From IMG/VR virus record IMGVR_UViG_2703718828_000006: DNA of 12,133 bases. One strand, given 5' to 3'. Within the stretch, counting starts at the first letter, position 1. The number at the start of each line of letters is the position of its first letter. Of this stretch, positions 9,832 through 10,470 are shown piece by piece. The position numbers were made by a program, and so were the translations under genes. Under the pieces are notes generated by a model. That model ran no database searches. It was given only the letters and a program-made list of their open reading frames with translations, and was not told where the DNA came from. Source of the stretch: a virus. Taxonomy: Duplodnaviria > Heunggongvirae > Uroviricota > Caudoviricetes.

Positions 9832-10470
9832 TCACTCTCCGTATTTTATAATGTCTTTGCCCAACTTTATTTTCTTATAAAAAGTAGCTTTTTTAATTCC
9901 TTTCAATATAATCTCATTCTCATTACAAAAAGAAATAATATCATTATATATAACACTATTATCGCTATAATTTGCCTTTCCATGTTTCTTAAGTAATTCA
10001 ATTAGTAGGTAGATTAATTTACAACTATAATTATCCTCGTCATCTTTTCTATACTGCCCTCTGCCATTACTCCTTAATTTTTTACCAATTTCATATAATT
10101 CACTTCCTCCTAGCATCATTAAAATATCGCCCCAATCTTTATTTTTTACCTGTTGTTGCAATGCGTTCTCAATTCTTTCCTTAATCTCCACGGGTACAAT
10201 ATCTTCCCTCTGAAAGATATAAGCGGCAGTTAGTACTAAGTTCGCTTCCACTTTTTGCGTGGCGGATATGCTTTTATATTCATTAATCAGTTGTAGATTT
10301 CTGGTTATTGCCTTTCTTAATCTAATAACCTCTTTTAATTGAATCTCAGTCAATTCATCATTTTCGGTATCATAGTCAAAACCATTCATAGCAAGCGCCA
10401 TTTCGTGTGGCGTAATGTACGTTAACCTATTAAAATAAAACAAATCATTATCAGATTGTGTGTTATTCAT
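9832..10470 (-). CDS. Hypothetical 212-aa protein in an AT-rich cargo island immediately downstream of the integrase
   Basis: ATG at 10470 with a GGAGAGA ribosome-binding site, only 30 nt past the integrase stop. Base composition shifts abruptly to AT-rich at the integrase stop. Hydrophilic, Lys/Glu/Asn-rich, no hydrophobic segment, no recognisable motif. Confidence 0.75.
   Translation of the reverse strand: MNNTQSDNDLFYFNRLTYITPHEMALAMNGFDYDTENDELTEIQLKEVIRLRKAITRNLQLINEYKSISATQKVEANLVLTAAYIFQREDIVPVEIKERIENALQQQVKNKDWGDILMMLGGSELYEIGKKLRSNGRGQYRKDDEDNYSCKLIYLLIELLKKHGKANYSDNSVIYNDIISFCNENEIILKGIKKATFYKKIKLGKDIIKYGE

What the first reader, a model, noticed from the sequence alone, without database searches (positions are those of the whole stretch)
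9832..10470. Second AT-rich cargo gene (212 aa) fused to the 3' end of the integrase transcription unit
The gene starts 30 nt after the integrase stop, on the same strand, with its own strong ribosome-binding site. Composition switches abruptly to AT-rich exactly at the integrase stop, which suggests a horizontally acquired insertion. The protein is hydrophilic, Lys/Glu/Asn-rich, and has no motif I recognise. It could be an anti-phage effector, an anti-defence factor or a helper-interference protein. The region downstream of it carries unusual repeats (see 9722..9800).
Basis: partly seen in the sequence, partly recalled or inferred. Interest (0 to 1): 0.7.

Follow-up and report, generated by a model that had tools for sequence, protein, structure and literature searches.

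The report
Integrase-coupled unknown gene in phage satellites
The 212-codon gene is real and under selection, but it is not a loose cargo insert: it belongs to a small uncharacterised protein family that sits directly behind the integrase gene of phage satellites and related islands, usually followed by short DNA repeats spaced one helical turn apart, so it is probably a regulator rather than an anti-phage weapon.

Summary
The ORF (9832-10470, minus strand), the 30-nt gap after the integrase (int) stop, the GGAGAG ribosome-binding site and the hydrophilic Lys/Glu/Asn-rich product are confirmed. The "abrupt composition switch at the int stop" is not: GC falls gradually (int 5' half 0.49, 3' half 0.41, ORF 0.31, spacer 0.30, alpA 0.41).

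The window is a P4-like satellite at leuX. The gene has no Pfam, PADLOC or NCBIfam match (only phrog_30524, unknown). A confident all-helical model (pLDDT 90.5) has no PDB or BFVD neighbour.

- In E. coli the gene is about as frequent as this int allele (205 genomes each), whatever cargo fills the classical hotspot.
- Homologues down to 21% identity lie immediately after a P4-type int in 15 of 15 lineages, often with overlapping stop and start codons.
- AlpA usually follows, after 270-680 bp of non-coding DNA.
- That DNA carries 10-bp-phased repeat arrays in 11 of 14 lineages, against 0 of 9 int-alpA loci without the gene.
- The protein diverges much faster than Int (66% vs 98%) but is under purifying selection (dN/dS 0.08).

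Best reading (about 0.4): an int-co-expressed, element-specific DNA-binding regulator acting on the arrays upstream of alpA. The cargo or effector reading stays open (about 0.3). Function is untested.

The parts
11928..12012 (-). tRNA-Leu(CAA), leuX; the attachment site of the element
   Evidence: ARAGORN; Rfam tRNA 59.4 bits; same chromosomal context in E. coli
11764..11815 (-). Int arm-type sites: two direct GGGGGCAT boxes plus an inverted GTGCCCCCAAA just before the int ATG
   Evidence: Read from the sequence; same boxes as the annotated P4 attP arm repeats
10501..11763 (-). P4-family tyrosine integrase. Probable ATG at 11763; the longest ORF runs from a TTG at 11832.
   Evidence: Pfam Arm-DNA-bind_3, Phage_int_M and Phage_integrase; 70% identical to P4 Int; RefSeq homologues annotated as 1263 nt
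10471..10500 (-). 30-nt int-to-ORF spacer with GGAGAG (10482-10477) 6 nt before the ATG
   Evidence: Sequence; no terminator-like site predicted
9832..10470 (-). The 212-aa gene of the finding ('X'): an int-coupled, all-helical protein of unknown function, member of phrog_30524
   Evidence: Conserved motifs: TP(93), LGGxEL, GRGxYRKxDE, KLIxLLxxLL, and C-terminal G[ILV]xKSTFYxK
9762..9797 (-). Decamer array A (AAGGGGCTAC AAGAGGCTCT AAGGGGCTAT AGGGGG), starting 35 bp after the stop codon
   Evidence: TRF period 10, 3.6 copies; AAGRGGYTNT gives 4 matches against 0.29 expected; invariant in E. coli alleles
9717..9762 (-). Decamer array B (GTAATACAGT x4.5); copy number varies, with two units fewer in E. 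coli APEC E19025
9600..9700 (.). Most AT-rich stretch of the spacer (0.22 GC), between the arrays and the alpA-proximal repeats
9496..9552 (-). alpA-proximal repeats of TTCAATAGAAT type, about 20-bp spacing
   Evidence: Sequence; the same motif recurs before alpA in L011, L012, L013 and L103
9211..9441 (-). alpA/vis homologue (probable ATG at 9441)
   Evidence: Pfam Phage_AlpA, E 2e-11; RefSeq annotation of homologues

Best explanation
The gene encodes an element-specific regulatory protein that belongs to the integration/regulation module of the satellite (int, X, repeat spacer, alpA). It is not hotspot cargo.

Shown:
- It is arranged as an operon with int.
- Its family sits immediately behind a P4-type int in every context examined.
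- It is usually followed by a long non-coding spacer that carries arrays of decamers repeated at one helical turn, and then by alpA.
- It diverges much faster than Int while staying under purifying selection.

Inferred:
- X is made together with Int in the integrated state.
- It binds the adjacent arrays through its basic C-terminal helix-loop-helix (G-I-K-K-A-T-F-Y-K-K).
[quoted passage not shown] The most likely mode is to keep alpA, and so excision and induction, silent, or to block read-through from int until a helper phage intervenes. This is functionally comparable to Stl of staphylococcal islands.
- The lineage-specific repeats and the fast-diverging protein would form matched specificity pairs.
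For: - Synteny Int then X in 15 of 15 lineages. Gaps run from -4 to +30 nt in 14 lineages and 98 nt in L018. The sites are leuX, next to yicC, ssrA and others. The elements are P4-like, PICI-like, cf-PICI-like (capsid-forming PICI) and a genomic island.
- In E. coli the X region is in 205 of 5426 genomes. The int allele is in 205 at 90% identity or more, plus 6 at about 71%. Hotspot cargo differs among them.
- Module swap: elements with an 889/890-identical primase have another int, another alpA, an unrelated slot gene and no arrays.
- A 10-bp self-similarity of at least 20 of 30 was found in 11 of 14 assessable X lineages and in 0 of 9 int-alpA loci without X.
- The arrays are not the primase origin. 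Eight TGTTYCACC iterons cluster at 4622-4810 and none lies near X.
- Divergence pattern of a specificity determinant: window vs L011 gives Int 98%, X 66%, AlpA 82%; L009 vs L013 gives Int 85%, X 35%, AlpA 56%. dN/dS is 0.08 between close alleles.
- Repeat units are the same in the 95%-identical allele, partly shared at 66%, and different in distant lineages.
- Published context: Gram-negative PICIs have no known master repressor, and alpA is switched on by the helper phage by an unknown route (PMC6092414; PMC11773190).
Against: - No significant HTH or other DNA-binding domain was detected. The hhalign probabilities are low (7.6%).
- X is transcribed toward alpA, not divergently as classical switch repressors are.
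- Many functional satellites have no gene in this slot, for example EcCIMP1. X therefore cannot be a general requirement.
- The ssrA-type homologue has no array and is separated from alpA by three genes. L008 and L016 have only weak periodicity.
- P4 has three 10-bp repeats before vis without any X.
- Each locus carries two or three different decamers, which is odd for one binding specificity.
- An unbiased 6-mer search found no motif shared across lineages.
- The L062-type slot family, which may share the C-terminal module (pairwise E 6e-4, probability 29%), has no arrays.
- P4-like immunity is classically RNA-based.
Confidence: 0.4

Rival explanations
1. Accessory effector. X would be a moron-like gene riding on the int transcript. 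It would give the host or the satellite an advantage against phages (defence, anti-defence or helper interference). The repeats would belong to the alpA promoter region, not to X.
For: - The int-alpA slot is polymorphic across related elements: X, DUF6387, three other unknown families, or empty.
- X is dispensable for the backbone, because the same primase is found with another module.
- GC is lower than in its int in 9 of 9 loci.
- Fast divergence fits an arms race.
- In SaPIs, accessory genes sit between int and stl (PMC6092414).
- Directly downstream of int is the defence hotspot in the classical P4 layout.
Against: - No PADLOC, Pfam or NCBIfam match.
- The family was never seen outside the position directly behind a P4-type int (15 of 15), unlike known defence genes that move between hotspots.
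- Stop/start overlap with int in distant lineages.
- Co-occurrence with decamer arrays (11 of 14 against 0 of 9).
- In this element the classical hotspot lies elsewhere and already holds a 558-aa AT-rich gene.
Confidence: 0.3
2. Recombination accessory factor. X would act with Int itself, for example as an architectural or directionality factor, or as an inhibitor that stabilises the integrated state.
For: - X is adjacent to a P4-type int in every lineage examined, and the two genes are translationally coupled.
- In the ssrA-type island X stays with int although alpA is 3.4 kb away.
- In L018 no AlpA gene was called after X, although a weak HMM hit lies about 1.2 kb downstream of int.
- A possibly shared C-terminal module occurs in a second int-coupled slot family.
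Against: - Ints 70-80% identical to this one work without X: P4, and L005 and L024.
- X diverges far faster than Int, which does not fit a tightly co-evolving complex.
- The arrays are about 2 kb from the att core, while the recognisable arm-type sites lie next to the core.
- AlpA/Vis already fills the excisionase role in this family (PMC6092414).
Confidence: 0.15
3. Replication or maintenance function. The arrays plus the AT-rich stretch would form an origin or a centromere-like site, and X would be its binding protein.
For: The layout resembles the iteron, AT-rich, iteron pattern described for Gram-negative PICI origins (PMC6092414). P4 annotates 10-bp 'type 2' repeats within its ori, upstream of vis.
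Against: - The primase iterons are at 4622-4810 and absent here.
- A sister element with the same primase lacks the region altogether.
- X is all-helical, with no similarity to Rep or ParB-type proteins and no partner NTPase.
Confidence: 0.07

Closest known systems
Stl, the master repressor of staphylococcal pathogenicity islands (SaPIs)
   Same: Encoded next to int. Highly divergent between otherwise related islands. Its proposed target lies between its own gene and the gene that starts the island's cycle. It would fill the unidentified-repressor gap noted for Gram-negative PICIs (PMC6092414).
   Different: No sequence or fold similarity. X is co-oriented with alpA, not divergent. No proven HTH. 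DNA binding and helper-triggered release are untested. Many Gram-negative satellites lack X.
P4 cII (264 aa), the gene directly downstream of P4 int
   Same: Same position and orientation relative to a 70%-identical Int. Unknown function. Non-essential region.
   Different: No detectable similarity noticed; Pfam finds nothing in either. P4 cII is part of the gop-beta-cII hotspot facing cos, not followed by alpA/vis.
Other genes found in the int-alpA slot (DUF6387; the L007/L098 family; the L062 family)
   Same: Same slot. Often overlapping the int stop. All of unknown function. The L062 family may share X's C-terminal ~65-residue module (hhalign pairwise E 6e-4, probability 29%).
   Different: N-terminal parts are unrelated. 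The spacers to alpA are short (93-156 bp) and lack decamer arrays.
P4-like satellite defence hotspot genes (Rousset et al. 2022, PMC9122126)
   Same: AT-rich gene of unknown function carried by a P4-like satellite.
   Different: Different locus: the hotspot of this element lies after delta and holds the 558-aa gene. X is fixed to int rather than variable among elements sharing flanks. No defence homology.

Membership tests
phrog_30524 (PHROGs, unknown function) | Full-length match to the family profile | tested here: met
   E 4.5e-113, residues 1-212 on profile positions 1-220 of 220
P4-like satellite defence-hotspot cargo | Located in the hotspot bounded by int and psu/delta/sid (through cos) | tested here: not met
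   In this layout psu-like and delta (3411-4444) are followed by the 558-aa AT-rich gene. X lies between int and alpA.
P4-like satellite defence-hotspot cargo | Content varies among elements that share the flanking core genes | tested here: inconclusive
   With this int allele X appears always present (205 genomes each). Across int types the slot holds different genes or none.
P4-like satellite defence-hotspot cargo | Similarity to a known or candidate defence protein | tested here: not met
   No PADLOC, Pfam or NCBIfam family; no PDB or BFVD fold neighbour
P4-like satellite defence-hotspot cargo | Protects cells against phage infection | not testable with these tools
   Needs phage challenge assays
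Stl-like island master repressor (functional class) | Encoded beside int and expressed in the integrated state | tested here: inconclusive
   Position met in 15 of 15 lineages; expression only inferred from the operon layout
Stl-like island master repressor (functional class) | Sequence-specific DNA-binding domain | tested here: inconclusive
Stl-like island master repressor (functional class) | Operator sites between its gene and the gene that starts the cycle | tested here: inconclusive
   Decamer arrays lie there in 11 of 14 X lineages and 0 of 9 controls; binding not tested
Stl-like island master repressor (functional class) | Divergent transcription from the regulated operon | tested here: not met
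   int, X and alpA are all on the minus strand
Stl-like island master repressor (functional class) | Released by a helper-phage protein | not testable with these tools
   Needs genetics or biochemistry
Excisionase/RDF (Xis, Vis, AlpA; PF05930) | Small (about 60-100 aa) protein matching the HTH_17/AlpA profile | tested here: not met
   212 aa, all-helical, no Pfam hit; a separate alpA lies at 9211-9441
Iteron-binding initiator with the P4-type origin | Adjacent repeats are the primase (alpha) iterons | tested here: not met
   TGTTYCACC x8 at 4622-4810 and none in 9487-9831; a sister element with the same primase lacks the arrays

The most novel reading that the evidence does not exclude
X and its decamer arrays are the first recognised representative of a Gram-negative counterpart of Stl. 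This would be a fast-evolving, int-co-expressed master regulator that keeps alpA off and senses the helper phage. The other unknown genes in the int-alpA slot (DUF6387, and the L007/L098 and L062 families, the last possibly sharing X's C-terminal module) would be alternative sensors of the same kind. That would explain how part of the P4-like, PICI and cf-PICI (capsid-forming PICI) elements couple induction to particular helpers.
Probability: 0.2. Interest if true: 0.75.

Novelty: new variant of a known kind. Interest (0 to 1): 0.5.

Why it matters
How Gram-negative phage satellites stay silent, and how a helper phage switches on alpA, is an open question (PMC6092414, PMC11773190).

- A protein family glued to the integrase gene, sitting directly upstream of the alpA control region and paired with lineage-specific helically phased repeats, is a concrete and testable candidate for that control.
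- Its three subfamilies occur in 205, 137 and 7 of 5426 complete E. coli genomes (about 6% if they do not overlap).
- Its confidently predicted fold matched nothing in the PDB or the viral structure library.
- If it instead proves to be an effector, it would define a second, int-proximal accessory slot in these satellites, beside the known hotspot.

Tried and rejected
- Domain searches. Pfam, PADLOC and NCBIfam found nothing for X; PHROGs gave only an unknown family. Scanning all 32 family members against Pfam at E up to 5 gave only noise, with a few HTH near-hits.
- PDB sequence searches. Profile searches gave only spurious coiled-coil-like hits: ING5 at E 0.0024 and SART3.
- Arrays as the primase origin: rejected.
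- Arrays as Int arm-type sites: unlikely. The arm boxes (GGGGGCAT) lie next to the att core, the array units differ from them, and the arrays are about 2 kb away.
- A motif shared by all arrays: not supported by an unbiased 6-mer count. CTNTAA/CTANAA at exact 10-bp spacing occurs in 6 of 14 lineages, but this is a post hoc observation.
- Homology between X and other slot proteins as single sequences: none. Only the profile-profile comparison with the L062 family gave a weak C-terminal match.
- The search for related loci with the broad alignment failed because no block was conserved enough. The genome-contig scan found only 3 species-level loci.
- Literature searches for the protein accessions or the PHROG id found nothing.

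Full report
**What the window is**

The window holds tRNA-Leu(CAA) at 11928-12012. Downstream of it, on the minus strand, come these genes:
- a P4-family integrase (Arm-DNA-bind_3, Phage_int_M, Phage_integrase);
- the 212-aa ORF of the finding;
- an AlpA homologue;
- a DUF5375 protein;
- a Zn-ribbon/Toprim/DUF927 primase;
- a Psu-like protein;
- an Ogr/Delta protein;
- an AT-rich 558-aa gene.

A portal-like gene lies at the far end, on the plus strand. This is a P4-like satellite at leuX, but in a layout unlike P4. In P4, int is followed by cII and the gop-beta hotspot. The same element type is found at leuX in E. coli. The ORF is 100% identical in a Pseudocitrobacter vendiensis genome.

**The observation**

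The coordinates, strand, 30-nt spacing, GGAGAG ribosome-binding site and hydrophilic Lys/Glu/Asn-rich product are all correct. The gene is real. dN/dS is 0.08 against the 95%-identical E. coli allele, and full-length homologues exist across Enterobacterales.

The claim of an abrupt composition switch at the int stop does not hold. GC declines gradually:

| Segment | GC |
|---|---|
| int, 5' half | 0.49 |
| int, 3' half | 0.41 |
| the ORF | 0.31 |
| downstream spacer | 0.30 |
| alpA | 0.41 |

GC then rises to 0.55-0.60 from about 8800 leftwards. That boundary coincides with the point where similarity to sister elements with a different int module ends (about 8791).

**The protein**

There is no Pfam, PADLOC or NCBIfam family; the only match is phrog_30524, of unknown function. 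An exhaustive profile search of 1.84 billion representatives found only 33 proteins, so the family is small. Members are 206-241 aa long.

Conserved motifs:
- TP at position 93;
- LGGxEL;
- GRGxYRKxDE;
- KLIxLLxxLL;
- a C-terminal G[ILV]xKSTFYxK.

The C-terminal motif resembles the turn and recognition helix of resolvase- or AlpA-type HTH domains; this is my own reading. The only computational support is weak:
- a 16-column hhalign match to the AlpA recognition helix (pairwise E 0.0046, probability 7.6%);
- a few sub-threshold HTH Pfam hits.

**Genomic behaviour**

*E. coli.* Among 5426 complete genomes the X region occurs in 205. The int allele occurs in 205 at 90% identity or more, plus 6 at about 71%. 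I compared counts, not genome lists. Elements that share int and X carry different cargo in the classical hotspot: DUF4062, an ABC-three-component system, or the 558-aa gene here.

*Sister elements.* Elements with an 889/890-identical primase, integrated at a tRNA-Arg gene, have another int, another alpA and an unrelated 324-aa gene in the slot. A leuX element in the classical P4 layout, with a 72%-identical int, has no X. Among 80 int-related viral contigs only the four with 98-100% int identity carry X.

*Homologues.* In every context I could examine, homologues lie immediately after a P4-type int. This holds for 15 lineages, with X identities down to 21% and int identities down to 24%. The contexts are leuX, beside yicC, at ssrA, and other sites. 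The elements are P4-like, PICI-like, a cf-PICI-like (capsid-forming PICI) induced element, and a genomic island. The gaps run from a 4-nt overlap to 30 nt in 14 lineages; L018 has 98 nt.

*The slot.* The int-alpA slot itself is polymorphic across the wider group. It holds X, DUF6387, at least three other unknown families, or nothing, as in the studied PICI EcCIMP1.

*Conclusion.* X is neither core to all satellites nor free cargo. It is a component of an int/alpA module that is exchanged as a block.

**The repeats**

Directly after the stop codon lie two arrays of decamers (9762-9797 and 9717-9762). After them come a 0.22-GC stretch and then TTCAATAGAAT-type repeats just before alpA. Copy number varies between alleles.

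Arrays with a 10-bp period, made of lineage-specific units, lie 35-200 bp after the stop in most homologue loci. I scored lag-10 self-similarity in a 30-position window:
- 11 of 14 assessable X lineages score 20 or more and exceed the other lags;
- 0 of 9 int-alpA loci without X do so.

Exceptions are the ssrA-type island (no array; three genes inserted before alpA) and two lineages with weak periodicity.

The arrays are not the primase origin. Eight TGTTYCACC iterons, close to P4's type 1 repeat, cluster at 4622-4810 and none lies near X. The sister element with the same primase lacks the arrays entirely. They are also not the arm-type Int sites, which sit next to the att core.

One caveat: P4 has three 10-bp repeats upstream of vis without any X.

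**Evolutionary rate**

X diverges much faster than its int, and faster than AlpA:

| Comparison | Int identity | X identity | AlpA identity |
|---|---|---|---|
| window vs L011 | 98% | 66% | 82% |
| window vs L008 | 78% | 47% | 62% |
| L009 vs L013 | 85% | 35% | 56% |

Together with purifying selection between close alleles and lineage-specific repeats, this is the pattern expected of a specificity determinant, such as a repressor with its operators. It would also fit an arms-race effector.

X is lower in GC than its int in 9 of 9 loci.

**Interpretation**

I favour, at about 0.4, an int-co-expressed DNA-binding regulator that acts on the adjacent arrays to control the alpA region. This would be functionally comparable to Stl of SaPIs. 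It is relevant because no master repressor is known for Gram-negative PICIs, and the route by which helpers switch on alpA is unknown (PMC6092414; PMC11773190).

The shown steps are synteny, the operon layout, co-occurrence with the arrays, and the rate pattern. DNA binding and the effect on alpA are inferred.

| Reading | Confidence |
|---|---|
| Regulator acting on the arrays | about 0.4 |
| Int accessory factor | about 0.15 |
| Replication or maintenance site with its binding protein | about 0.07 |

A weak profile-profile match suggests that the C-terminal ~65 residues may be shared with a second int-coupled slot family (pairwise E 6e-4, probability 29%). This hints at a modular superfamily, but that family has no arrays.

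**Verdict**

The gene is an uncharacterised, int-coupled family with no fold neighbour in the libraries searched and with an associated cis element. I rate it a new variant of a known kind (a mobile-element regulatory or accessory gene), of moderate interest. Its function remains untested.

Noticed in passing
window 4622-4810: Eight copies of TGTTYCACC (0.16 expected) in both orientations, between the primase gene and the psu-like gene. They are close to P4's type 1 ori/crr iteron TGTTCACC. This is probably the primase-dependent origin or crr (P4's cis replication region) of this element.
   Followed up: partly
window 1416-3092 (minus strand): A 558-aa AT-rich gene (GC 0.355) in the classical post-delta hotspot position. 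It has no Pfam or PHROG family, only weak PADLOC/NCBIfam hits (DitB 1e-4, Avs1c 1e-3 to 2e-3). Sister elements carry DUF4062, an ABC-three-component system or an ATP-binding protein here.
   Followed up: partly
window 309-1388 (plus strand): A 359-aa portal-like ORF (Phage_portal, E 7e-18, partial profile coverage) at the far end of the satellite. A similar 'phage portal protein' gene sits at the same end of sister elements (L007; truncated by IS3 in L001). This is unusual for a P4-like satellite.
   Followed up: no
window 9496-9552; L011, L012, L013, L103 upstream of alpA: TTCAATAGAAT-type repeats at about 20-bp spacing just upstream of alpA. They recur in loci whose AlpA proteins are only 23-25% identical to this one. 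L008 and L016 carry a TTGATGGAAT variant. They may be sites for a conserved factor (AlpA autoregulation, or a helper or host factor).
   Followed up: no
window 8827-8907: Three copies of (AGG)TGTGGCCCAC within 80 bp, at the start of the divergent YlcI/YnfO-like gene and near the module boundary and the Icd-like region. Possibly an operator.
   Followed up: no
window about 8791-9000: Recombination and composition boundary. Left of it (primase side) the element is about 90% identical in DNA to tRNA-Arg-integrated satellites, and the primase protein is 889/890 identical. Right of it int, X, alpA and ylcI are replaced as a block.
   Followed up: partly
E. coli hits H4, H8, H9; H112, H113: IS1 insertions recur within or next to X genes of two different subfamilies. 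This is consistent with IS1's preference for AT-rich DNA. Many frameshifted or truncated copies of the ssrA-type subfamily exist (P0068-P0082).
   Followed up: no
L024 1402-2460; L018 3583-4400: DUF6387 proteins occupy the int-alpA slot, or sit next to alpA, in other elements. This is another uncharacterised family tied to the same position.
   Followed up: no
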